Below are positions 1 to 10,125 of a stretch of DNA of 10,125 bases, piece after piece. The stretch is from a virus, in the UHGV virus genome UHGV-0288291. One strand, written 5' to 3'. The notes under the pieces are model-generated. The model saw nothing but the letters and a program-made list of their open reading frames with translations. It was not told where the DNA came from and ran no database searches. The translations under genes were made by a program, and so were the position numbers. How positions within the stretch are numbered: position 1 is the first letter of the stretch; every line of letters begins with the position of its first letter.

Positions 1-118
1 AACCGGGCGCGAAAGGTGTCGGCTCGTTGAAGGACGGCACCCACCAGTAAACATCCTCCTCCACGCCACGGCGGGTATATTTTGCCGGTGAGGTTTCCAG
101 TCTGATGATCTTACCGGT
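1..118 (-). repeat. Duplicated fragment of the portal-gene internal region (copy of 333..450)
   Basis: Read by eye, 1..118 is identical to 333..450. The minus-strand sense encodes ...TGKIIRLETSPAKYTRRGVEEDVYWWVPSFNEPTPFAPGS. The copy starts at the window edge and may extend further left. Confidence 0.7.
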
Positions 119-270
119 AACCTGTTTCTCTATGCCCCACAGGGGAAAGCCGACGGCATTAAAATTATCCCGCTCAGTGAAGTGGCGACGAAGGACGATT
201 TTTTTAATATCAAAAAAGCCAGCGCCGTTGACCTGCTGGATGCGCACCGCATCCCCTTTCAGTTGATGCT
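119..270 (+). repeat. Duplicated fragment of the portal-gene 3' region (copy of 659..810)
   Basis: 119..270 matches 659..810 with 3 mismatches (188 vs 728, 228 vs 768, 240 vs 780). It encodes NLFLYAPQGKADGIKIIPLSEVATKDDFFNIKKASA(V/A)DLLDAHRIPFQLM. Homology ends abruptly at 270/271. Confidence 0.7.
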
Positions 271-570
271 GAGATATTCCGGCAGGCCGTACAGCTCCTG
301 ATTAATATCCGGCTCCAGCAGGTGAAACACGGAACCGGGCGCGAAAGGTGTCGGCTCGTTGAAGGACGGCACCCACCAGTAAACATCCTCCTCCACGCCA
401 CGGCGGGTATATTTTGCCGGTGAGGTTTCCAGTCTGATGATCTTACCGGTGGTGCTGTAACGCTTTTCCAGAAACGCATTACCGAACACCAGAAAATCCA
501 GCACAAAGCGGCTGAAATCCTGTTGCGAAAGCCACGGATGCGGGATAAATGTCGAGGCCAGAATATTGAT
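271..570 (-). pseudogene. Q: Portal protein (gpQ-like) internal fragment, inverted relative to the 3' part of the same gene
   Basis: Clean minus-strand reading frame (part of track ORF 259..648) encoding INILASTFIPHPWLSQQDFSRFVLDFLVFGNAFLEKRYSTTGKIIRLETSPAKYTRRGVEEDVYWWVPSFNEPTPFAPGSVFHLLEPDINQELYGLPEYLS. It lies head-to-head with the plus-strand portal 3' part at about 570/571. The in-frame stop at 259-261 falls inside the adjacent duplicated segment. Confidence 0.6.
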
Positions 571-979
571 GTACGTCACCGATGCCGTGCAGGACCGCAA
601 CGATATCGAAATGCTTCGCGAAAACATGGTGAAGTCGAAAGGCCGCAATAACTTTAAAAACCTGTTTCTCTATGCCCCACAGGGGAAAGCCGACGGCATT
701 AAAATTATCCCGCTCAGTGAAGTGGCAACGAAGGACGATTTTTTTAATATCAAAAAAGCCAGCGCCGCTGACCTGCTGGACGCGCACCGCATCCCCTTTC
801 AGTTGATGGGCGGCAAGCCGGAGAACGTCGGGTCGCTGGGTGATATTGAGAAAGTGGCAAAGGTCTTTGTCCGCAATGAGCTTATCCCGCTACAGGACAG
901 GATCCGCGAGATAAACGGCTGGCTCGGTCAGGAGGTCATCCGCTTTAAAAACTACTCACTGGACACTGACAACGGCTGA
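569..979 (+). CDS. Q: Portal protein (gpQ-like) C-terminal portion, 136 codons; 5' part of the gene not colinear
   Basis: Track ORF 566..979 starts on a TTG; the first ATG is at 569. It is followed by an intrinsic terminator and then cos about 170 bp downstream, the position of Q in P2. The translation (MYVTDAVQDRNDIEMLRENMVKSKGRNNFKNLFLYAPQG...) matches my recollection of the P2 Q C-terminus; this needs alignment to confirm. Confidence 0.65.
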   Translation: MYVTDAVQDRNDIEMLRENMVKSKGRNNFKNLFLYAPQGKADGIKIIPLSEVATKDDFFNIKKASAADLLDAHRIPFQLMGGKPENVGSLGDIEKVAKVFVRNELIPLQDRIREINGWLGQEVIRFKNYSLDTDNG

Positions 980-984
980 ACATC

Positions 985-1006
985 GCCGCCTGCGGGCGGC
1001 TTTTTT
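985..1006 (+). terminator. Rho-independent terminator after the portal gene
   Basis: GCCGCC (985-990), loop TGCG, GGCGGC (995-1000), then TTTTTT (1001-1006), five bases after the stop codon at 977-979. Confidence 0.7.
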
Positions 1007-1148
1007 ACACCCCGCCATCACGCCCTCACACGCTCACCACCGCACAAAACAGCCCGCAGACACACCAACGCCCCGGCTAACAATCTAAACGCCATCACGA
1101 CGCGCTCAGACGCTGAAAAAATAAAATCAGCACCACCGCCAGCGCGCA

Positions 1149-1167
1149 GTGCTTTCCCCGCCTCGCC
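1149..1167. other. cos site: P2-type 19-nt cohesive-end sequence
   Basis: The plus strand reads GTGCTTTCCCCGCCTCGCC, the reverse complement of GGCGAGGCGGGGAAAGCAC, which I recall as the P2 cohesive end. It sits between the portal stop and the A-side variable locus, as in P2. Confidence 0.65.
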
Positions 1168-1451
1168 CGCCCGCTTCGTGGGGCGGTTTTAATGCAGTTG
1201 CATAGATACTATGGATCCGCACCAGTCCTGACCGCACGCAGCCTGAACGGACATCCCCAACGCATGCAAAAACATTCACTTGTTGCATGCATAGCTTTTT
1301 AAGTACGCCATACCGCAACTGTACATTTTTAAGCAATTGGCAACCTTAAAAAATTTACATTGCTTTCAAGACCTTATCATCCGTAGTCTCTGTTTTTTAC
1401 TTTGAGCTACATCAATAAAATCTCAAACATGTTTAATGCAAAGCCCTTGTT

Positions 1452-1505
1452 ACACAACATAGAATGTATGTCTAGAAACAACGACATACTATATGTTGTG
1501 TTTTT
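1452..1505 (+). other. Long imperfect hairpin followed by a T5 run (terminator- or attenuator-like RNA structure)
   Basis: ACACAACATA (1452-1461) pairs with TATGTTGTGT (1492-1501), and an inner TATGTC (1467-1472) pairs with GACATA (1483-1488). TTTTT follows at 1501-1505. The element is AT-rich. Confidence 0.4.
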
Positions 1506-1567
1506 CCGGCTCTCTGTTCGGTGATATGCCAAATCACTTTGCGTTTAAACAGAGCATTATTTCAGGG

Positions 1568-1582
1568 CAAGACTTCGCTCAA
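1568..1582 (+). repeat. 15-bp direct repeat CAAGACTTCGCTCAA, copy 1
   Basis: Exact 15-mer also present at 1832..1846. The two copies bracket the micro-ORF and its terminator. Confidence 0.5.
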
Positions 1583-1645
1583 AAGTCATTCCACCTAAGA
1601 AGCGCATATACCGGTGGAAGTTGCCCTCTACTTACAGGAGGCAAT

Positions 1646-1759
1646 ATGAAGAAATGCTATTACTGCATTCTCGTTCTGGCCCTCTTTGGCTATCCAAACG
1701 GTAGTCCGAGTGGTTTGTCAGTAAACGTCAGTAATATCAATGTCAGCATTATGCTTTAA
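1646..1759 (+). CDS. Hypothetical 37-aa hydrophobic peptide (MKKCYYCILVLALFGYPNGSPSGLSVNVSNINVSIML) in the cos-A variable locus
   Basis: Consensus Shine-Dalgarno AGGAGG (1636-1641) 4 nt before the ATG at 1646; a strong intrinsic terminator follows immediately. N-terminal hydrophobic stretch. Convergent with gene A. The track's 88-aa version starts inside a hairpin with no SD. Confidence 0.4.
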   Translation: MKKCYYCILVLALFGYPNGSPSGLSVNVSNINVSIML

Positions 1760-1771
1760 TATGCTTCAAAC

Positions 1772-1801
1772 AAAAAAACCACCTGCCAGGGTGGTTTTTT
1801 T
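1772..1801. terminator. Bidirectional rho-independent terminator
   Basis: AAAAAAA, ACCACC, TGCCAG, GGTGGT, TTTTTTT. The A-tract upstream and T-tract downstream let it serve both the plus-strand micro-ORF and the minus-strand A operon. Confidence 0.7.
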
Positions 1802-1831
1802 GCGCCCATCATCAATACGATGAAAGACTGA

Positions 1832-1846
1832 CAAGACTTCGCTCAA
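1832..1846 (+). repeat. 15-bp direct repeat CAAGACTTCGCTCAA, copy 2
   Basis: Exact match to 1568..1582. Confidence 0.5.
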
Positions 1847-2061
1847 GACGAATTATGCGTCGACATAAGGTTACCCGCAATGATTTTATTAGACTAAATG
1901 GATGGCCTTTTATGACCCGGATCAAACGGCTGTCCTTACCGACATGCTAGTCACTCAATAGCATTTAGCCTTCTAATTCAGCATGCTATTGACCTTCTGC
2001 TGCCCCATAACTGCTCCGCATAAGCCATTCAATGCCATATCAAATCACGTTGTGTTTTTAC

Positions 2062-4338
2062 TCAAATGGGTAACGAGAACCCCGGCCACTCATCAGCAAC
2101 CGGATACGTGAATTTTTTCCCGTCATAATTTACGGTCGCGCCACGCGCCAGCGCCTCAAGCTCCCATCGTTGCGGCCTGATACCGTTCTGAGCGAGGTCA
2201 ACGCGGATACGGGTAATTTGCAATCGTTCAGACCTGGTCAGTCTGGCAGATGGTGCAATTTCATGCGGTTTTAACGGGATTCCGTTTCTTTGCTGACGAT
2301 TTGGTGTTCTCAGTCCGTGTTTTAATGCGCCCCTGAGCGCCATCACGACCTCCGGGTCACTCCATTCGATAACACCGTCATCTACCAGATTAAGCACTGC
2401 TGCGGCGTGCTCAGAAGGTGTGGGAGCCGGTAACGAAGTATCACCACCGGTGAGCTTTCCACAGTTATTGACAGGACTCCGAGGCGCGGCGATGCCGCTT
2501 TTTAAAGTCAAAGGCTCAACGACCGGAACTTTCGGCACAATGCGCCAGTCCGTCGTTCTGGTGATATGAATATGACGCGCGCCGAGATGCGGCGCGTAAA
2601 TGCCGACCACTCTCTCGACTTCTTCCTCGTACTCGTTAACGTCATCCGACAGACTACGGGCGACCCTGACAGTCTGACAATCGCGCGGGACATTTGCCCC
2701 GCCCTGCGCGCTGATATACAGCGCAAAATCACCACTGTCTGCGGCGGCGCGTGCAGCCTCGACGCGCTCGTCAAACTCATCAGCAATGCTGACGCCGCGA
2801 GGCAATTTGCGTAGTTCACGGTAAGCCCCCATTGTCGGCAGGCCAACCGTTTTAAATTGCGGAATGCGCCACGTTGACGCCCATGCGGTAACAGCCGCTG
2901 CAGTGTCTTTCAGCGGCCTGCCGGTGTCGTTATCGAGCTGACCATCCAGTGCATAGCCGTCGATGTTTTTTGAAATGTATTTCGCGATATATCCCGCAGC
3001 ACCGCCCCGGTTAAGGTGTTTTGCCTGAAAACGGTTTCGCGCGGCTCCTCTTTCGTCGCCATCCTCTTTGAGCGCATAGCGACGCATGATTTCGATAATC
3101 TGGTTACGCTGGCGTGGATGACAAAAAAGCATCATATGCCAGTGCGGCGTTCCGTCGTGGTGTGGCTCGACGACTCGCAAACCGTAGACCTGTAAATCAT
3201 TATCCTTGAATGCCGTGCGCATCAGGCTCCAGATACGGCAGAGATAACGCTGCGCATCCTTTGGATTAAATGCCTCATCGTTCCAGCCGTGATTAAGCTG
3301 AACGGTTTTACTTTCGCCTTTTCCGACCTGACGTGTCGGGTGATACTTTGACGGCGCGGTCAGCGTGATAAACATCCCCACATCACCCTCTGCGGCGGCG
3401 TAACGCTCAATACCGGCAATGGTGTTCATCAGCTCCATCCGGCGAATTTCAGGATTAGAAATACTGCCCATCACCTTACTGATAAGGTCGATGCGCTCGC
3501 CGGTTTCCCTGTTTTCAAGGTCACACGATTTAAGAAATTCCAGATTTGCCTGGCGGCGCGCACGCACATCACGAATGGCGTGTTTACTGGCATAAGGAGA
3601 ACGGTCTTTATTGACCTCCCCGACAGCTATCAGTAACGCCTCATGCCAGCGCATACGCTGGCCTTTAAGCTGACTAATCCACCACTCATCGTTAAACAGG
3701 CGGGCAATGGCAGAATATGCCTGCCTCGTGGTCATCTGTCCTTTACGGTATTTTTTCCAGTAGAGCGGGGAAATATTGAAAGCACGTGCAGCGCCAGCAA
3801 CATGACCATACAGGTGAGCCTGCGCCTCATCCGTAAACAGCGATTCTTTTTCACCATGCGCATCAACCCATGCATCGCAGAGTTCCTCATACATCATGAA
3901 AAGCTGCGATGAGATACGGGCGGCAAACTTTTTCAGCTCCTTGTCATTCATTCCCGGCAGGCGCGCATAGTGGTCACGCTCTGCCAGAAACAGCAACGAC
4001 GCGTCGGTGTTCATTTCATGGCGCTGATTCACACGCTCAATGCGCGGCCATAAACGACGCTGAAAAGTAGATGTGAGGAAATAAAACCCGTGCACCGGGC
4101 TTTTATTGCGCCGGATGTAGTCATAGCGTGAAGTAAACAGCGAGCGCAAAAAGTAAGGCAGGCGGTTAATCGTGGATAAAACACCTTGCACCTGACGCAT
4201 CTCGTCACGTGTAAGAGGTCTTTCGCGCCCGACAGCCTCGCGTGGCGCGTTCCATGCATAAGCACCGGTAAACGCCTTACCGGTGCCTGCGGTAAATGCT
4301 GACGGAGGGACAAAACGCCCGGAGGCTTTAACGGCCAT
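2062..4338 (-). CDS. A: Rolling-circle replication initiator (P2 gpA-like HUH endonuclease)
   Basis: 758-aa product. The first ATG is at 4338; the track start at 4380 is a TTG. HUH motif HWHMM is encoded at 3130-3144. The GYIAKYIS tyrosine pair (Y-x3-Y) is encoded at 2971-3000, typical of phiX174/P2-type initiators. Its start overlaps the end of the upstream small ORF. Confidence 0.9.
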   Translation of the reverse strand: MAVKASGRFVPPSAFTAGTGKAFTGAYAWNAPREAVGRERPLTRDEMRQVQGVLSTINRLPYFLRSLFTSRYDYIRRNKSPVHGFYFLTSTFQRRLWPRIERVNQRHEMNTDASLLFLAERDHYARLPGMNDKELKKFAARISSQLFMMYEELCDAWVDAHGEKESLFTDEAQAHLYGHVAGAARAFNISPLYWKKYRKGQMTTRQAYSAIARLFNDEWWISQLKGQRMRWHEALLIAVGEVNKDRSPYASKHAIRDVRARRQANLEFLKSCDLENRETGERIDLISKVMGSISNPEIRRMELMNTIAGIERYAAAEGDVGMFITLTAPSKYHPTRQVGKGESKTVQLNHGWNDEAFNPKDAQRYLCRIWSLMRTAFKDNDLQVYGLRVVEPHHDGTPHWHMMLFCHPRQRNQIIEIMRRYALKEDGDERGAARNRFQAKHLNRGGAAGYIAKYISKNIDGYALDGQLDNDTGRPLKDTAAAVTAWASTWRIPQFKTVGLPTMGAYRELRKLPRGVSIADEFDERVEAARAAADSGDFALYISAQGGANVPRDCQTVRVARSLSDDVNEYEEEVERVVGIYAPHLGARHIHITRTTDWRIVPKVPVVEPLTLKSGIAAPRSPVNNCGKLTGGDTSLPAPTPSEHAAAVLNLVDDGVIEWSDPEVVMALRGALKHGLRTPNRQQRNGIPLKPHEIAPSARLTRSERLQITRIRVDLAQNGIRPQRWELEALARGATVNYDGKKFTYPVADEWPGFSLPI
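2468..2487 (-). promoter_or_regulatory. Candidate replication origin / A-protein nick region inside gene A
   Basis: The plus strand reads TTGACAGGACTCCGAGGCGC, the reverse complement of GCGCCTCGGAGTCCTGTCAA, which I recall as part of the P2 ori nick region located within the A coding sequence. This is recollection only and needs alignment. Confidence 0.35.
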
Positions 4339-4603
4339 ATGAGCCAAAAGCCTCTGAACAACGCTTGCTGAGTTGCTCAACCTGCGCGTTTAAATCAGCA
4401 AAAGATTTTGCGCTTCCGGTCAGAATATCGTGATGCATCAGGCCGGAAACGAGCTGGCCTAATTTCGGGTAATAACCAACCACCGCCAGCCATTCCTGAC
4501 CGGCGTTTTTACCGCTTTCCGCTCTCTTTTTCTCGTGGAGAATAAACTGAAAGCTGTCACTGGTAACGACATAACGTTTGCCAATTTCAATACGAATACT
4601 CAT
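4328..4603 (-). CDS. Hypothetical protein (P2 orf83 position), 91 aa
   Basis: ATG at 4603 overlaps the upstream stop (ATGA); SD-like GGAGAA upstream. Immediately precedes A. Confidence 0.6.
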   Translation of the reverse strand: MSIRIEIGKRYVVTSDSFQFILHEKKRAESGKNAGQEWLAVVGYYPKLGQLVSGLMHHDILTGSAKSFADLNAQVEQLSKRCSEAFGSYGR

Positions 4604-4824
4604 GCCGTTCTCCGGTAATGTTTGTTTTTTGCTTCAAAGACTGACTGACAGGAAACACAACGCGTGGCTGACGGATAAGCCGCACGACGGGCAGCAGGTA
4701 TTGGCGCGTCACACTCTTCGCAAACCAGCGCAGAAACACCGCAATGTTTTACCCTTGCCGCGTTAATCTGGCGCTCCAGTAATTCAGCCTGTTGTTCCTG
4801 AATGAAATCTACGTTGTCCGGCAT
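4600..4824 (-). CDS. Small C4 zinc-finger protein, TraR/DksA-like (P2 orf82 position), 74 aa
   Basis: CEEC...(about 20 aa)...CVSC motif. Start ATG overlaps the upstream stop (TAATG). Confidence 0.6.
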   Translation of the reverse strand: MPDNVDFIQEQQAELLERQINAARVKHCGVSALVCEECDAPIPAARRAAYPSATRCVSCQSVFEAKNKHYRRTA

Positions 4825-5126
4825 TACCAGTTCCTTTTGTCGTTCAGTTTCTTAAATTCATCAGCGCAATAGCTGGCGAGTTCTGTCGTTAATTTTGTCA
4901 GTTCATCCACTGAGGAAATTTGCCTGTGAAATACAGCGCGTTTTACAAGTAAATTGATCACATCAGACAGGAGGTTTAATTCGCTCTGATAAATCGCGAT
5001 AACAGATTCAGTTATGTCGCGCTTTTCTTTATCAAGACCAAGTTGAATAAGAGACAAATCGCCATTTTCCATAACAGCGATTTTTAAGGCGTTATTCAGT
5101 AATACAACCGAACGAGAACAGGACAT
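4824..5126 (-). CDS. Hypothetical protein (P2 orf81 position), 100 aa
   Basis: The track start at 5129 is a TTG; the first ATG is at 5126 and overlaps the upstream stop (TGATG). GGAGG lies 8 nt upstream. Confidence 0.6.
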   Translation of the reverse strand: MSCSRSVVLLNNALKIAVMENGDLSLIQLGLDKEKRDITESVIAIYQSELNLLSDVINLLVKRAVFHRQISSVDELTKLTTELASYCADEFKKLNDKRNW

Positions 5127-5350
5127 CAAAGCACCTCCCCGCGAGACAATCCGATATTGTGAAATTTTTCCGACTCCTGACTGAGCAGCTCAACTATCTC
5201 CACGCGGGATAACTCCGCCTTTGTGATGTGGCGAATCATGGCGTCAAGATGAGAAGAAAAGCGCGTCGCAGCGTCGGCCTGTGCTTCGGTTCTGGCCTGT
5301 TGCAGCAGTAATGCGTATTTACCGCACTGATTTTCAGAAACTGTATGCAT
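5126..5350 (-). CDS. Hypothetical protein (P2 orf80 position), 74 aa
   Basis: ATG at 5350 with GGAGA 7 nt upstream; its stop overlaps the next start. Confidence 0.6.
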
Positions 5351-5413
5351 GACTTTCTCCAGGCAAAAAGAAGCCCCGCACGATTAAGTGCGTTAAAAAC
5401 TCTGGTTAATTAT

Positions 5414-5914
5414 TTAATGCAGATATTGCTCTGGTTTTACCGACGTCAGAATTGTCGGTGCATACTCAAAAAGACTGAATAATTCACGTAATGCACGGAA
5501 TAAAGCATCACGCCAGTAACATGATTCTTCATTAATTCGCCAGTACGGCTGATTGAATTCTTTTTCTGTCAATCCCGCATGCATAAATAAAGTACGACGC
5601 TGACTGACTGTTAAAAAACTAATATATGCATACTCACTTGCGCCGACCTGACGGCGTTTTGAGAATGCGCCACGCAATTCATCAATTGCACAAACCAGTC
5701 GTTCACGTTCGACGTCGTTCATTTCTTCAAAACGCATCGTTGCGTGACGCTGTTTTAACTGTGCATGAAAGCAAACCGTTAGCCGTTCGCGCTCCATCAT
5801 CTGATTATAATAATCACATGTATCCTGCCAGCGAGGGACGGCAAGATGCTTGCCAATTATCCGGCGCATAGCTGCTGGCTGTTTTTCAACGAGATTGAGC
5901 GTCATCACTGTCAT
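5414..5914 (-). CDS. B: Replication protein B (P2 gpB-like helicase-loader accessory), 166 aa
   Basis: The ATG at 5914 is preferred over the track start at 5920: GGAGGG is spaced correctly for 5914, and it forms an ATGA overlap with the upstream ORF stop. Position between cox and A matches P2. Confidence 0.8.
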   Translation of the reverse strand: MTVMTLNLVEKQPAAMRRIIGKHLAVPRWQDTCDYYNQMMERERLTVCFHAQLKQRHATMRFEEMNDVERERLVCAIDELRGAFSKRRQVGASEYAYISFLTVSQRRTLFMHAGLTEKEFNQPYWRINEESCYWRDALFRALRELFSLFEYAPTILTSVKPEQYLH

Positions 5915-6081
5915 TTCCATACCCTCCGGCTTTTCAGAAAGGTCAGAGCCTTTTTTAACGGACTCTGTTTTTTGGTGCGGATAATGATTCCCTTACGCCC
6001 CTTACCGTGGGTGATGGTGAAGTCAATCGCCCTGGGGCTTTCGTTACGCAATAACTGAGCAATACAACGCGGCTCATTCAT
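5911..6081 (-). CDS. Small hypothetical protein between cox and B (P2 orf78 position), 56 aa
   Basis: The ATG at 6081 lies 2 nt after the cox stop (TGATTATG) and has a GGGG SD-like element. The track start at 6108 lies inside cox and has no SD. Confidence 0.5.
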   Translation of the reverse strand: MNEPRCIAQLLRNESPRAIDFTITHGKGRKGIIIRTKKQSPLKKALTFLKSRRVWK

Positions 6082-6083
6082 AA

Positions 6084-6371
6084 TCACAACCCCATCCACA
6101 AAAGCCATGCATCACGCTGTTCAACCGGTCGGTTATAAAACGCCTCACGTACAGCGCGATTAAACTCAGGAATGAAAACCCATTTTTCACCGGCACGAGC
6201 CTTCGGTTTGCAAGGATCACGCAATTCAATAATTGGTAATTTATTTGCCTTCACCATTTCACTGACGGCTGTCTTTGGCTTCCCTAATAAATCAGCAAAT
6301 TTATCCACATGAACCGCATCAAGCGGATACTGAATCACATAATTTTCAGCGTCCATATATGGTACCCTCAT
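6084..6371 (-). CDS. cox: Cox-like excisionase / early repressor of the lysogenic promoter
   Basis: First gene of the early operon, divergent from C. C-terminal ...RDAWLLWMGL resembles the P2 Cox C-terminus as I recall it. Alternative start at 6356 (MDAENYV..., 90 aa) has an AGGG at reasonable spacing. Confidence 0.7.
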   Translation of the reverse strand: MRVPYMDAENYVIQYPLDAVHVDKFADLLGKPKTAVSEMVKANKLPIIELRDPCKPKARAGEKWVFIPEFNRAVREAFYNRPVEQRDAWLLWMGL

Positions 6372-6492
6372 AGGATCCAGCCCTTTCTAAACCACTCAAA
6401 ACCGTTTAGATGCTGGTTTATTCTCAAATCAATGGAACCTATATAGGTTCCAGTTTTGAGGGAATTTAGTCCCTATATAGGCACCATGTCAA
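6372..6492. promoter_or_regulatory. C/cox immunity switch region with palindromic operator-like repeats
   Basis: Perfect 18-bp palindrome GGAACCTATATAGGTTCC (6434-6451); related CCCTATATAGG (6471-6481) about 34 bp away; degenerate CCCTCATAGG (6365-6374). Also an inverted pair TCAAAAC (6397-6403) / GTTTTGA (6454-6460). Confidence 0.6.
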
Positions 6493-6786
6493 ATGAAATT
6501 AAGCGAAAAGATTAAGGCCTTGCGTGAGGCTGAAGGGCTAAGCCAATCAAAATTCTGTGAAATCATAGAGTTACCGCTAAGCACACTTAAAAAATATGAA
6601 GGAGGAAACTTTGAACCCGGTGGCACAGCTTTGCTAAAAATCACTATGCATCCCACATTCCAAAAATATGCTCTATGGCTTATGACAGATAAAACCGCGC
6701 CGGACGCAGGACAAATCGCACCGGCTCTCGCGCACATTGGGCCAGAGTCAACAGAGTCCAACCACTCCGCGAAAAGGATTGGCTAA
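6493..6786 (+). CDS. C: Immunity repressor C (P2 C-like, HTH), 97 aa
   Basis: Located directly upstream of int on the same strand. ...GQIAPALAH... matches my recollection of the P2 C repressor C-terminal region. The ATG at 6486 is out of frame and hits a stop. Confidence 0.8.
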   Translation: MKLSEKIKALREAEGLSQSKFCEIIELPLSTLKKYEGGNFEPGGTALLKITMHPTFQKYALWLMTDKTAPDAGQIAPALAHIGPESTESNHSAKRIG

Positions 6787-6855
6787 CTCTATATAAAGAT
6801 TACATTTTCACCATTTGCTACCAAGATGGTGAATACAGCGCCGGAGGGCTTTCTT

Positions 6856-7836
6856 ATGGCAATTAAGAAGCTCGATGATGGTCGCTATGAAGTGGACATT
6901 AGACCTCGCGGTCGCGACGGAAAACGCATCCGCAGGAAATTCGAAAGAAAAGCTGAAGCACTAGCATTTGAGCGATACACAATCGCCAATGCCAGTCAGA
7001 AAGAATGGGGAGGCCAGCGAGCAGACCGCCGGACTTTGAGTGAGTTGCTGGACATCTGGTGGAAATATCACGGGCAAAACCACGAGCATGGAACAAAAGA
7101 GTTTAATCATCTACTCAAAACCATCAGCGGCATAGGTGATATACCAGTGAGCAGGATGAGCAAAAGGGCTTTGATGGATTATCGTTCCATGCGACTACGT
7201 GATGGTATCAGTGCCGCAACGATAAACCGTGACATGTACCGATTATCCGGCATGTTCACAAAATTAATTCAATTGGATGAATTTTCCGGGCAACACCCAA
7301 TTCACGGACTGCCGCCACTGGCGGAGGCCAACCCTGAAATGACGTTCTTGGAAAAAGCAGAAATCGAAAAACTGTTAAATGTTTTGGCTGGTGATGACTT
7401 ACTTGTCGCGCTTTTATGTCTGAGCACCGGAGGAAGATGGACGGAAGTTGCCACGCTAAAACCAGCACAGATTACAAATTGCAGGGTTACCTTCCTGAAA
7501 ACCAAAAACGGTAAAAAGCGAACCGTGCCGATTTCTGAGGAACTGGAGAAAAAAGTTAAAGAGGAGGCCAGCGCCAAATTATTCAAAGTTGATTATGAGA
7601 AATTTTGCGGGATTTTACGCAGAGTGAAACCTGATATACCACCCAATCAGGCAACCCACATCCTGCGGCATACATTCGCAAGCCATTTCATGATGAATGG
7701 GGGCAATATAATCGCACTGCAACAGATTCTGGGACATGCGAGCATTCAGCAGACGATGGCCTATGCGCACCTTGCGCCTGACTATCTGCAAAATGCCGTC
7801 GCTCTGAATCCACTAAAAGGCGGAGTGACGTTATAA
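6856..7836 (+). CDS. int: Tyrosine integrase (P2 Int-like), 326 aa
   Basis: The first ATG with an SD (GGAGGG, 6843-6848) gives MAIKKLDDGRYEVDIRP...; the track start at 6826 is upstream of this. C-terminal catalytic region HILRHTFASHF...LGHASIQQTMAYAHL carries the R/H-x-x-R/Y signature. Confidence 0.9.
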   Translation: MAIKKLDDGRYEVDIRPRGRDGKRIRRKFERKAEALAFERYTIANASQKEWGGQRADRRTLSELLDIWWKYHGQNHEHGTKEFNHLLKTISGIGDIPVSRMSKRALMDYRSMRLRDGISAATINRDMYRLSGMFTKLIQLDEFSGQHPIHGLPPLAEANPEMTFLEKAEIEKLLNVLAGDDLLVALLCLSTGGRWTEVATLKPAQITNCRVTFLKTKNGKKRTVPISEELEKKVKEEASAKLFKVDYEKFCGILRRVKPDIPPNQATHILRHTFASHFMMNGGNIIALQQILGHASIQQTMAYAHLAPDYLQNAVALNPLKGGVTL

Positions 7837-7848
7837 ATTTCCCCCTCT

Positions 7849-7873
7849 GAGTGTCCACATAGTGTCCACACTC
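7849..7873. promoter_or_regulatory. Candidate integrase arm-type binding sites (two TGTCCACA repeats, 11-bp spacing)
   Basis: GAGTGTCCACATAGTGTCCACACTC, with TGTCCACA at 7852-7859 and 7863-7870. The reverse complement TGTGGACA is what I recall as the P2 Int arm-site consensus. Confidence 0.5.
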
Positions 7874-7955
7874 AAGAAATTTTGAAACCGCTCCAAACCC
7901 TTACAGCTTTCGATAAGTACCTGTTTTTACTTTTGATTGCATGTAAGTAATTGAT

Positions 7956-7982
7956 AAAAAAAACCCCCACATCATGTGGGGG
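7956..7982 (-). terminator. Hairpin with A8 tract: terminator for leftward transcription, possibly part of the att core
   Basis: AAAAAAAA (7956-7963), CCCCCAC (7964-7970), loop ATCAT, GTGGGGG (7976-7982). The T-tract follows the stem only on the minus strand. Confidence 0.45.
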
Positions 7983-8046
7983 AAGACAGGGATGGTGTCA
8001 CAAAAATGCACCTAACCTGATGATATAAATGGATTTATATCAAACA

Positions 8047-8069
8047 CTGTCCACATAGCGTCCACATCG
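8047..8069. promoter_or_regulatory. Candidate integrase arm-type binding sites, second pair
   Basis: TGTCCACA (8048-8055) and CGTCCACA (8059-8066), same 11-bp spacing as the first pair. Confidence 0.5.
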
Positions 8070-8076
8070 ACTACTG

Positions 8077-8110
8077 AAAGCCCCTAAGCACATGGGGCTT
8101 TATTTTTCCT
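8077..8110 (+). terminator. Rho-independent terminator upstream of the moron
   Basis: AAAGCCCC (8077-8084), loop TAAGCACAT, GGGGCTTT (8094-8101), then ATTTTTCC. Confidence 0.6.
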
Positions 8111-8161
8111 CTTTTTGGAGGTATGAATTTTACTCAACCAAATGTTTATTAAGGATTTTCT

Positions 8162-8563
8162 ATGGCAACTCTTAAATCAGTGATGGCAATAGCCACCTTA
8201 ATAATTTCACTCAACGCAAACGCGAATGATATTAAAACCCTTCAAAAGCAGCTTAAACCATGGCAACCCCTAGAAATCACGAATAAAAACAACTCGCTTA
8301 CGGTGGTGCTTCCTGGCAAAGAAATCTCTCCTGACGCCTACAACAACCTGATTATGACTGGTGTATGCGCACCAGTCTGGACAAAAGACACGCCTGTTTC
8401 ATATCTCAAAAAAATCAAAGAAATAAGCATAGTTAATCAATATAAATCCATCGGTTATGTTTTTTCCGAACCATTAAAAACATGCAATGAAATAGGTTCG
8501 TTGACGCCTAAACAGGGGCAAGTGTTACTTTCATCCCAAACACGTCTTTACACAGGGAAATAA
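8162..8563 (+). CDS. Hypothetical secreted/periplasmic protein, 133 aa; AT-rich moron between int and ogr
   Basis: SD AAGGA 7 nt before the ATG. N-terminal Sec-type signal peptide MATLKSVMAIATLIISLNANA with an AxA-like cleavage motif and no lipobox Cys. Mature part is K/N/S/T-rich with two Cys. GC is visibly lower than the flanking phage genes. Terminators on both sides. Confidence 0.7.
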   Translation: MATLKSVMAIATLIISLNANANDIKTLQKQLKPWQPLEITNKNNSLTVVLPGKEISPDAYNNLIMTGVCAPVWTKDTPVSYLKKIKEISIVNQYKSIGYVFSEPLKTCNEIGSLTPKQGQVLLSSQTRLYTGK

Positions 8564-8582
8564 GCTCCTAAACAAAGTTGAA

Positions 8583-8610
8583 AGCCCCTCGACTGAGGGG
8601 CTTCCTGTTT
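8583..8610. terminator. Bidirectional terminator between the convergent moron and ogr
   Basis: AGCCCCTC, loop GACT, GAGGGGCT, with U-rich flanks on both strands. Confidence 0.6.
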
Positions 8611-8614
8611 GTAA

Positions 8615-8833
8615 TTACATCCACATAATTTGCTGCCCTGACGGCAACGGGTGCGGCCTTACGGCGTGGACTTCTCCCGGCTTCACGATGTATCGCTGTA
8701 CCGACTCATAAGTGATGAACGTGGCACTACAATTCACGTTCTGGCACTGATGATAACGCTCTTTTGTCGTGTCAGTGATATAGCGGCTTGTACGCGCATG
8801 TGCGGCATGCTGGCATAAAGGACAATGAAACAT
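8615..8833 (-). CDS. ogr: Late gene transcription activator Ogr (zinc finger), 72 aa
   Basis: MFHCPLCQHAAHARTSRYITDTTKERYHQCQNVNCSATF... with a CxxC...CxxxxC zinc finger. ATG at 8833 has AGAGG 8 nt upstream. The longer track ORF (to 8896) starts on a TTG with no SD. Confidence 0.9.
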   Translation of the reverse strand: MFHCPLCQHAAHARTSRYITDTTKERYHQCQNVNCSATFITYESVQRYIVKPGEVHAVRPHPLPSGQQIMWM

Positions 8834-8914
8834 CGCGAGCACCTCTTCCGGTTTTGTTGATGGTGCCATTTTAGTTAAATTATCCTTATAAAACAAACAG
8901 ATAAAATAAAAACA

Positions 8915-10078
8915 TCACTCATCATCTTCTGTTTCGTACTCCACATCAGAAAGCCTGACCTCAAGCTCCAGGGACGTCGTGAAGCCGCTATTATTCAGAA
9001 AATGTGTCACCTTAGTGATTGTCCAGTCCTGCTCGTCTATGACGCGCTTAAAGCCTGACACTTTAACCGGTGTTTCCGTGTAAATATCTGCCCGACCGGT
9101 AGCCAGGCTGATGGAGAACTCCGCAACGCCCCGTTGCAGTTTATCCCACTTCGCCTGAGCGGCGCGCATGGCCTGCGCTTTCGTGGCATATACCGTGGTC
9201 AGGGCAAAAACATTGTCAGCCTCACCGGCCATATATTCACCTTCGCGCGCTTCCGGTACTTTTGGCGCTTTCTTCTGCCTGACCGGTTTCGCTTTTGGGT
9301 GCTCCAGTGCGCGCAGGTGTTTTTCTTTCTTTTTGCGTTTCAGTTTTATCTTCTGCTTTTGCGGCTTCGGGTCTTTGGTGTGAAGCCACTTTGCCGTTAC
9401 GCCGGTATAGGCTCCACGGTCAGCAATCGCAAAATGATGACGGTCGCCGTCGCTGCGGGTGATGGTAATCTGCGGGATTTTTTTACCGCTGGCCGTCACC
9501 CCCTGCCCCGCTTTGAGAAACAACAGTTTTCCCATTTTTACCGACACCTCACCGCCGTTGCGTTCAGCAAGGCGGGTCAGGAATTTTGCATCAGACTCCT
9601 GCGACTGGTCGATGTGCGGGATTTTAATTCCGGCCAGTGACGGAGCGACACTGGCTTCCAGCCTGTTACGGGAGGCTATCGCCTCAACAATCGCACCGAG
9701 CGTGGTGTCATGCCAGGAGCCTTCACGGCGGGAATTGAGCGTCCCGCGAAAATCTGCACTCCGGGCGCGGATGGTGACCACATCCGGTGCGCCCCGGTGT
9801 TCAACCTCATCAACGGTAAATTTCCCTTTGCATACCAGAGCAAAACCTTTCCAGCCTATATACACCGTCAGGACAGCGCCACGAACCGGCAGCCCGACCT
9901 GCCCGTCGGCATCGTTCAGTTCAATATCAAGCTGGTCAGCCTCAAAGCCCCGGTTATCCGTCAGGGTCATGCTCATCAGACGGTCGCTGATATTGCCGGT
10001 AATATCCCTGCTGTCGAGCATCAGCATGTAATCCGGCGTCAGCGTACTGCCTGCATCAAATGTCAGCGCATCCAGCAT
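8915..10078 (-). CDS. D: Phage tail protein D (P2 gpD-like), 387 aa
   Basis: Same strand and immediately upstream of ogr, as in P2. Length matches P2 gpD. Start ATG overlaps the upstream stop (TAATG). Confidence 0.85.
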   Translation of the reverse strand: MLDALTFDAGSTLTPDYMLMLDSRDITGNISDRLMSMTLTDNRGFEADQLDIELNDADGQVGLPVRGAVLTVYIGWKGFALVCKGKFTVDEVEHRGAPDVVTIRARSADFRGTLNSRREGSWHDTTLGAIVEAIASRNRLEASVAPSLAGIKIPHIDQSQESDAKFLTRLAERNGGEVSVKMGKLLFLKAGQGVTASGKKIPQITITRSDGDRHHFAIADRGAYTGVTAKWLHTKDPKPQKQKIKLKRKKKEKHLRALEHPKAKPVRQKKAPKVPEAREGEYMAGEADNVFALTTVYATKAQAMRAAQAKWDKLQRGVAEFSISLATGRADIYTETPVKVSGFKRVIDEQDWTITKVTHFLNNSGFTTSLELEVRLSDVEYETEDDE

Positions 10079-10125
10079 TATCCCGCCCCCATCATACCTG
10101 TGAATCTGGTCGCCAGACTGCCGGC
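10078..10125 (-). CDS. 3' end of the upstream tail gene (gpU-like), truncated by the window
   Basis: Open minus-strand frame from the window edge encoding ...AGSLATRFTGMMGAG, with stop TAA at 10078-10080 overlapping the D start. Identity inferred from P2 gene order only. Confidence 0.4.
   Translation of the reverse strand, partial: AGSLATRFTGMMGAG

What the first reader, a model, noticed from the sequence alone, without database searches (positions are those of the whole stretch)
1149..8110. Window topology implies a non-integrated, tandem or circularly assembled phage
An intact cos and an apparently intact int-attP-ogr junction occur in the same 10-kb window. In a single integrated P2-type prophage, int and ogr sit at opposite ends of the element, separated by the whole genome. 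This arrangement therefore indicates virion or replicative DNA assembled as a circle, a plasmid-like state, or a tandem polylysogen junction. It also bears on how the scrambled portal region at 1-570 should be read, since it could reflect assembly rather than biology.
Basis: inference. Interest (0 to 1): 0.4.

Follow-up and report, generated by a model that had tools for sequence, protein, structure and literature searches.

The report
Circular-form P2-like phage genome segment
The window is an ordinary P2-family (WΦ/L-413C-type) E. coli phage whose DNA is laid out as the free circle, with joined packaging ends and an unused integration site, which is routine for assembled phage genomes, and its garbled left end is an assembly artefact.

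Summary
The window carries a joined P2-type cos: the 19-nt end GGCGAGGCGGGGAAAGCAC occurs once, at 1149-1167. It also carries an unrecombined attP: P arm, 47-bp core at 7953-7999, then P' arm, lying between int and ogr.

Window 569-7999 and 7953-10125 are 99.8-99.9% identical to the two ends of a single prophage integrated between fieF and cpxP in E. coli OZ040973. The window therefore matches the excised or circular join of that prophage type.

No host flank is present in the window. None of about 790 complete E. coli genomes carrying this integrase has a contiguous attP. Deposited phage genomes do, and at least four Peduovirus records (for example vB_EcoM-12474III) show the same Q-cos-A-int-attP-ogr-D layout.

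Only the intact attP is diagnostic, because a joined cos about 6.8 kb from int is normal in an integrated prophage too.

Positions 1-568 are blunt blocks of 118, 150 and 300 nt. They are 100% identical to a second natural portal allele, alternate in orientation and have paired-read geometry, so I read them as an assembly artefact.

Alternatives I could not test here are a mis-join across the 47-bp core repeat and a tandem lysogen.

The parts
1..568 (.). Scrambled portal-gene (Q) pieces: blocks 1-118 (inverted), 119-268 (direct) and 269-568 (inverted). All come from a second Q allele and are read as an assembly artefact.
   Evidence: Each block is 100% identical to the Q gene of the E. coli ATCC 11775 prophage, against only 95.8-97.3% to the closest relative of the rest of the window. 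The joins are blunt. 1-118 is an exact copy of 333-450, and 119-268 is a 98% copy of 659-808. The reverse complement of 119-568 equals Q2[501-801] followed by the reverse complement of Q2[976-1125], which is paired-read geometry.
569..979 (+). 3' part of portal gene Q (C-terminal 136 codons), in the native orientation running toward cos.
   Evidence: Collinear with the Q genes of L-413C and L004. Weak Phage_portal Pfam hit. Positions 569 to about 680 are allele-2-like; the sequence switches to L004-like between Q coordinates 736 and 782.
1149..1167 (.). Joined cos: the 19-nt P2-type cohesive end (GGCGAGGCGGGGAAAGCAC on the minus strand), present once.
   Evidence: Both termini of the linear L-413C record overlap on these 19 nt.
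1204..2061 (.). Variable cargo region between cos and gene A (the P2 old/tin position). It holds no large ORF, only a 37-codon hydrophobic ORF at 1646-1759 followed by a terminator.
   Evidence: No match to L-413C or GMS190 over 1204-2075. Present in the L004 prophage. No PHROG hit and no Rfam family at gathering score.
2062..4338 (-). Gene A, the replication initiator (nicking endonuclease).
   Evidence: Pfam Phage_GPA, E = 7.5e-124.
4328..5350 (-). Homologues of P2 orf83, orf82, orf81 and orf80 (DUF5405, TraR/DksA zinc finger, DUF5405-like, DUF2732).
   Evidence: Pfam and PHROG hits and synteny with L-413C.
5414..5914 (-). Gene B (replication).
   Evidence: Synteny and annotation in L004 and L-413C. 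The copy of Pfam used gave no hit.
6084..6356 (-). cox (excisionase and switch repressor).
   Evidence: Pfam Phage_Cox, E = 1.2e-23.
6493..6786 (+). Immunity repressor C.
   Evidence: HTH_3 hit and synteny.
6856..7836 (+). int, a tyrosine integrase of WΦ/L-413C specificity.
   Evidence: Pfam Int_N plus Phage_integrase. Its 3' half plus the P arm occurs in 780-790 of 5426 complete E. coli genomes, always on the chromosome.
7837..7952 (.). attP P arm, with the tandem arm-type repeat TGTCCACATAGTGTCCACA at 7852-7870.
   Evidence: Identical to the phage side of attR in L004. Repeats found. They fit the P2-type arm consensus tgTGGaCa (PMC3448106).
7953..7999 (.). attP core, 47 bp. It equals the 3' end and terminator of the host cpxP 3'UTR sRNA gene cpxQ.
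   Evidence: Shared by attL and attR of L004. One mismatch to K-12 attB, which lies in the cpxQ-fieF interval.
8000..8107 (.). attP P' arm, with the arm-type repeat TGTCCACATAGCGTCCACA at 8048-8066 and a 10-nt inverted repeat at 8021-8042.
   Evidence: Identical to the phage side of attL in L004. Repeats found. Contiguous with the P arm in phage records.
8162..8563 (+). Cargo ORF of 133 codons, function unknown. Low G+C, with an N-terminus that looks like a signal peptide.
   Evidence: phrog_3807, unknown function, and no Pfam hit. Always found as fieF|ORF133|ogr in 10 chromosomal contexts.
8615..8833 (-). ogr, the late-gene activator.
   Evidence: Pfam Ogr_Delta, E = 1.1e-21.
8915..10078 (-). 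Gene D (tail protein).
   Evidence: phrog_52 tail protein, E = 4.7e-187 and synteny.

Best explanation
The window is about one third of a WΦ/L-413C-type P2-like phage (Peduovirus) of E. coli, written in the topology of the free circular genome. The two 19-nt cohesive ends are joined into cos, and the attachment site is unrecombined attP. The window therefore runs Q'-cos-cargo-A-B-cox|C-int-attP-ORF133-ogr-D.

This is the form the DNA takes after injection and cos ligation, or after Int/Cox excision. From memory, it is also the monomeric circle that P2 replicates and packages from.

The most likely reason it appears here is technical. The sequence was probably assembled from free phage DNA (virion preparation, induced culture or virome), and the assembler closed or permuted the circle, as in several deposited Peduovirus genomes.

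The first 568 nt are junk at a contig end. They are read-sized pieces of the portal gene of a second P2-like phage in the same sample.

Shown here: the identity of cos and attP, the absence of host flanks, the identity to both ends of a known prophage, and the artefactual nature of 1-568. Inferred: the kind of sample and the assembly history.
For: 1. cos is joined, with the 19-mer present once.
2. attP is P-core-P', matching attR and attL of one prophage at 99.8-99.9% with a 47-bp overlap. P2-type arm repeats lie on both arms (consensus in PMC3448106).
3. The integrated form has int and ogr at opposite ends, next to cpxP and fieF. cpxP-fieF is the known WΦ site (PMC3032704; PMC3448106).
4. About 790 complete E. 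coli genomes carry this int plus P arm, all chromosomally. No record, chromosome or plasmid, holds the P and P' arms contiguously.
5. Phage-derived records do have the attP contiguous. GMS190, vB_EcoM-12474III, GMG73 and phage 899 cover window 119-10125 in one place, with both cos and attP internal.
6. The left end is built of blunt 118/150/300-nt blocks, 100% identical to another natural Q allele, with forward-read/reverse-mate geometry. This points to a read-based assembly of a sample holding two P2-like phages.
Against: The source contig, its ends and its reads are not available. Neither circular closure nor coverage could be checked.

Exact junction and attP patterns were not found in IMG/VR, the JGI metagenomes or the GTDB representative genomes. 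The nature of the sample is therefore inferred, not observed.

The evident assembly error at 1-568 lowers trust in the assembler. It leaves open that the attP join is itself a mis-join through the 47-bp repeat.
Confidence: 0.75

Rival explanations
1. Assembler mis-join in an ordinary single lysogen. attL and attR share an identical 47-bp core, so a short-k graph assembler could walk int -> core -> P' arm and create an apparent attP with no free phage DNA present.
For: The core is an exact 47-bp repeat at both prophage ends. The same contig has a demonstrable assembly artefact at 1-568. Two similar P2-like prophages in one genome are known to tangle assemblies (E. coli W, PMC3032704).
Against: The block sizes in the junk suggest reads of 150-300 nt, which would span a 47-bp repeat, and most assemblers break at such a repeat rather than mis-join. 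The artefact at 1-568 is a blunt concatenation, which is a different failure mode from a repeat-mediated path error. None of the complete genomes shows such a join.
Confidence: 0.14
2. Tandem double lysogen. Two copies of the prophage are inserted head-to-tail at cpxQ/fieF, and the window covers the internal junction, which is an intact attP.
For: The topology is formally identical within 10 kb. The window cannot distinguish the two.
Against: None of about 790 complete E. coli genomes with this integrase has P-core-P' contiguous. From memory, P2 double lysogens usually occupy different sites rather than sitting in tandem.
Confidence: 0.04
3. A stable plasmid-like (episomal) P2-like phage, or a composite sequence pieced together in silico.
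For: The circle topology is compatible with an episome. The exact block sizes of 150 and 300 nt, and the join at 568/569 falling exactly on an internal ATG that gene callers use as a start, could also arise from computational handling.
Against: No plasmid record carries this int plus P arm. PLSDB holds no record covering at least 80% of the window. The window carries no plasmid maintenance genes. The attP and cos joins are base-perfect natural junctions rather than blunt joins.
Confidence: 0.05

Closest known systems
Prophage of E. coli isolate 30821_1#335 (NZ_OZ040973.1, between fieF and cpxP); WΦ-type, called 'Wphi1' in E. coli W
   Same: 99.76% identity over window 569-7999 and 99.86% over 7953-10125. 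Same cargo ORF133, same int, and the same 47-bp core.
   Different: That element is integrated (attL and attR, with int and ogr about 29.5 kb apart). The window has the two ends joined as attP. Twelve of the 18 differences in the 569-7999 match (21 over both matches) cluster in Q'-cos, 569-1179.
Yersinia phage L-413C and Escherichia phage WΦ (Peduovirus; virion-map genomes)
   Same: Same gene order, the same 19-nt cohesive end, and the same attP core and integration site (PMC3448106). Identity is 96-97%.
   Different: Those records are linear from cos to cos, so cos is split at the record ends. They lack ORF133 and carry different cargo between cos and A.
Circularly permuted Peduovirus records: vB_EcoM-12474III (NC_049457), GMS190, GMG73 and phage 899
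   Same: Identical topology in one linear record: P-Q-cos-cargo-A...cox-C-int-attP-ogr-D-U-T. GMS190 also carries ORF133.
   Different: Identity is 94-96% with different cos-proximal cargo, and their portal genes are intact.

Membership tests
P2-like phage (Peduovirus) | P2-type cos with the 19-nt 5' cohesive end GGCGAGGCGGGGAAAGCAC | tested here: met
   Window 1149-1167 is the overlap of both termini of L-413C.
P2-like phage (Peduovirus) | Conserved gene order Q-cos-(cargo)-A-orf83..80-B-cox | C-int-attP-ogr-D, with the matching protein families | tested here: met
   ORFs, Pfam and PHROG hits, and synteny with L-413C and 12474III.
P2-like phage (Peduovirus) | High nucleotide identity to recognised members | tested here: met
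   93-98% identity to many Peduovirus records over 71-84% of the window.
WΦ/L-413C integration-specificity group | attP core identical to the host sequence between cpxP and fieF, with P2-type arm repeats (tgTGGaCa) on both arms | tested here: met
   47-bp core versus attL, attR and K-12 attB. Arm repeats at 7852-7870 and 8048-8066. Integration site and consensus from PMC3032704 and PMC3448106.
Non-integrated (free circular) phage genome | [quoted passage not shown] | tested here: met
   Four-way att alignment. The only host-identical sequence in the att region is the 47-bp core.
Non-integrated (free circular) phage genome | The whole genome closes on itself, and read depth differs from chromosomal depth or reads span attP | not testable with these tools
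   The source contig and reads are unavailable. Exact-pattern scans of IMG/VR, JGI and GTDB found nothing.
Single integrated prophage | int adjacent to host DNA (cpxP side) and ogr adjacent to host DNA (fieF side) | tested here: not met
   Window 8000-8107 is the phage P' arm, not the cpxP flank. Contrast with L004.
Tandem polylysogen | Two phage copies flanked by attL and attR, with an internal attP | not testable with these tools
   The window is shorter than one genome. As a precedent check, 0 of about 790 complete-genome lysogens have an internal attP.

The most novel reading that the evidence does not exclude
The sequence may come from a cell that really holds this WΦ-type phage as a tandem dilysogen or a persistent episome alongside a second P2-like prophage. 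The portal scramble would then record real inter-prophage rearrangement at the recurrent Q breakpoint (GGATAC|ATCATGTACG) that several independent deletion remnants share.
Probability: 0.03. Interest if true: 0.35.

Novelty: already known. Interest (0 to 1): 0.07.

Why it matters
It matters mainly for bookkeeping. The window should be annotated as a free or circularly permuted P2-like phage genome, not as an integrated prophage. Positions 1-568 should be ignored as an artefact, so no biology such as portal rearrangement should be inferred from them.

The attP/attL/attR/attB comparison gives a simple test that can be reused. For P2-like elements only attP, not cos, tells free DNA from integrated DNA.

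Tried and rejected
1. Looking for the source contig. Exact 40-41-nt patterns across two scramble junctions, and an attP-spanning pattern (validated on the window), found nothing in IMG/VR, the JGI metagenomes or the GTDB representative genomes. Exact-protein look-ups of gpA and of the chimeric ORF at 259-648 were not on record.

2. E. coli genome hits that seemed to cover 91% of the window (H41-H46). These turned out to be an integrated prophage with an internal deletion whose BLAST pieces were joined non-collinearly, not an int-attP-ogr junction.

3. The idea that int-att-ogr-D could arise by integration next to a cryptic ogr-D' remnant, as at the K-12 cyaR site. Rejected, because the P' arm, ORF133, ogr and a full-length D match the attL side of the same cpxP-fieF prophage at 99.86%.

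4. De Bruijn-graph chimera as the cause of the 1-568 scramble. Rejected, because the junctions share only 0-1 nt.

5. Plasmid origin. PLSDB has no record covering at least 80% of the window; the best covers 66% and stops at the core.

6. Rfam. No family at gathering score anywhere in the window. Only sub-threshold terminator-like hits at the core and at 1740-1860.

7. Quantifying the Q deletion hotspot in complete genomes. Only about 33 of 1644 records have a truncated Q, and the spread sample did not show the hotspot class.
Full report
**What the window is.** Megablast of the whole window finds 134 phage records, almost all Peduovirus (P2-like), at 93-98% identity. The ORFs and their Pfam and PHROG families give the canonical P2 early region and its neighbours, listed here left to right:
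- portal Q, C-terminal part, 569-979 (+)
- gene A, 2062-4338 (-)
- orf83 to orf80, 4328-5350 (-)
- gene B, 5414-5914 (-)
- cox, 6084-6356 (-)
- repressor C, 6493-6786 (+)
- int, 6856-7836 (+)
- a 133-codon cargo ORF, 8162-8563 (+)
- ogr, 8615-8833 (-)
- gene D, 8915-10078 (-)

The window is the reverse complement of the standard virion map.

**cos.** I compared the window with the linear, cos-to-cos record of Yersinia phage L-413C.
- Window 569-1167 aligns to the left end of that record (599 down to 1).
- Window 1149-1204 aligns to its right end (30728 down to 30673).
- The two alignments share exactly 19 nt, GGCGAGGCGGGGAAAGCAC on the minus strand, and this 19-mer is present once in the window.

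This is a natural ligated cos, not two record ends pasted together.

**attP.** The closest relative is a prophage in E. coli NZ_OZ040973.1. It is integrated between fieF and cpxP, with the order fieF | ORF133-ogr-D ... P-Q-cos-A ... C-int | cpxP.
- Window 569-7999 matches the Q-to-attR part at 99.76%.
- Window 7953-10125 matches the attL-to-D part at 99.86%.
- The two matches overlap on a 47-bp core present at both prophage ends.

Aligning the window with attL, attR and the empty K-12 site gives the expected pattern. The window is P-core-P', attL is B-core-P', attR is P-core-B', and K-12 is B-core-B' with one mismatch in the core.

Both arms carry the tandem repeat TGTCCACATAG(T/C)GTCCACA. This is the complement of the P2-type Int arm-site consensus tgTGGaCa (PMC3448106).

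The cpxP-fieF interval is the published site of WΦ and of Wphi1 in E. coli W, and L-413C shares the WΦ core (PMC3032704; PMC3448106). In K-12 the core coincides with the 3' end of the annotated sRNA gene cpxQ.

**What the topology implies.** A joined cos about 6.8 kb from int is normal in an integrated prophage, so cos carries no information here. The intact attP is the diagnostic feature.
- About 780-790 of 5426 complete E. coli genomes carry this int plus P arm, always on the chromosome.
- A 701-nt query across attP found no record with the two arms contiguous. Every hit stops at the core, either at query 1-350 or at query 304-701.
- Tandem junctions and episomal 'plasmid' records of this phage type are thus absent from that collection. 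PLSDB likewise has no record covering more than 66% of the window.
- Phage-derived records do have the attP contiguous.
- At least four (GMS190, vB_EcoM-12474III, GMG73, phage 899) cover window 119-10125 in one stretch. The RefSeq annotation of vB_EcoM-12474III reads P-Q-...-A-...-cox-C-int-ogr-D-U-T in one linear record.

The window's arrangement is what a circularly permuted assembly of free P2-like phage DNA routinely looks like. Biologically it corresponds to the closed circle formed after cos ligation or after Int/Cox excision. From memory, that circle is also the P2 replication and packaging substrate.

**The scrambled left end.** Positions 1-568 consist of three blocks of portal sequence.
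- 1-118 is inverted and is an exact copy of 333-450.
- 119-268 is in direct orientation and is a 98% copy of 659-808.
- 269-568 is inverted.

All three blocks are 100% identical to a different natural Q allele, the one in the E. coli ATCC 11775, APEC O1 and SF-468 prophages. They are only 95.8-97.3% identical to the relative that matches the rest of the window at 99.8%.

The joins share 0-1 nt, and the block sizes are 150 and 300 nt. The reverse complement of 119-568 equals allele-2 Q[501-801] followed directly by the reverse complement of Q[976-1125]. That is the geometry of a forward read concatenated with its reverse mate from a fragment of about 625 bp.

The window's own Q' is allele-2-like up to about position 680 and then becomes L004-like.

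I read this as junk at a contig end, from a sample that held two P2-like phages. It is not a rearranged portal gene, and it is not a de Bruijn-graph chimera, because the junctions share no k-mer. It shows that the assembly is imperfect, which is why a mis-join through the 47-bp core remains the main rival to a real free circle.

**Rivals and limits.** I could not find the source sequence. Exact junction and attP patterns are absent from IMG/VR, the JGI metagenomes and the GTDB representative genomes (the pattern was validated on the window). The gpA product and the chimeric ORFs are not on record. Circular closure, coverage and read support are therefore untested.

My estimates are:
- about 0.75 for free phage DNA assembled as a circle or permuted contig
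- about 0.14 for a mis-join across the core in an ordinary lysogen
- about 0.04 for a tandem dilysogen
- about 0.05 for an episome or a computational composite

**Verdict.** The finding is accurate and the inference is logically sound. It describes a representation that is already known and common for P2-like phages, so it has low interest and no novelty.

Noticed in passing
window 1-568 (and 569-726): The portal 'scramble' is three blunt blocks (118, 150 and 300 nt) that are 100% identical to a second natural Q allele (E. coli ATCC 11775 type). They are arranged like a forward read followed by its reverse mate. The native-orientation Q' is itself allele-2-like up to about 680 and then switches to the L004-like allele. 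The sample therefore held two P2-like phages.
   Followed up: yes
window ~555-580; loci L005, L010, L012, L013, L014 at ~9985-10001: Independent deletion remnants of P2-like prophages in public assemblies share a right-hand endpoint within 9 nt, at GGATAC|ATCATGTACG (palindrome TACATCATGTA). This lies just upstream of the internal ATG at window 569. The left partners differ (tube, ogr, W, sheath). This may be an illegitimate-recombination hotspot in Q. Look-up bias is not excluded, and the sample is small.
   Followed up: partly
window 7953-7999: The 47-bp attP core equals the 3' end and terminator of the host sRNA gene cpxQ (the cpxP 3'UTR). Integration therefore replaces the end of cpxQ with a phage copy that differs from K-12 by one base in the terminator loop. 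The P2 locH site is likewise annotated at the cyaR sRNA in the E. coli W paper.
   Followed up: partly
window 8162-8563: A low-G+C cargo ORF of 133 codons (phrog_3807, no Pfam domain) with an N-terminus that looks like a signal peptide. It sits between the P' arm and ogr, has its own terminators on both sides, and occurs in only a subset of relatives (GMS190, P37, FSLSP004 and many E. coli prophages).
   Followed up: partly
window 1204-2075: The cos-proximal variable locus, which in relatives holds old/tin or other defence cargo (SIR2, DUF87, GmrSD, methyltransferases in L005-L014), carries no large gene here. It holds only a 37-codon hydrophobic ORF (1646-1759) with a ribosome-binding site and a strong terminator (about 1776-1801).
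   Followed up: no
E. coli genome collection: Two of the roughly 790 genomes carrying this int plus P arm have two copies of it. Neither copy forms a contiguous attP. I did not look at how the two copies are arranged.
   Followed up: no
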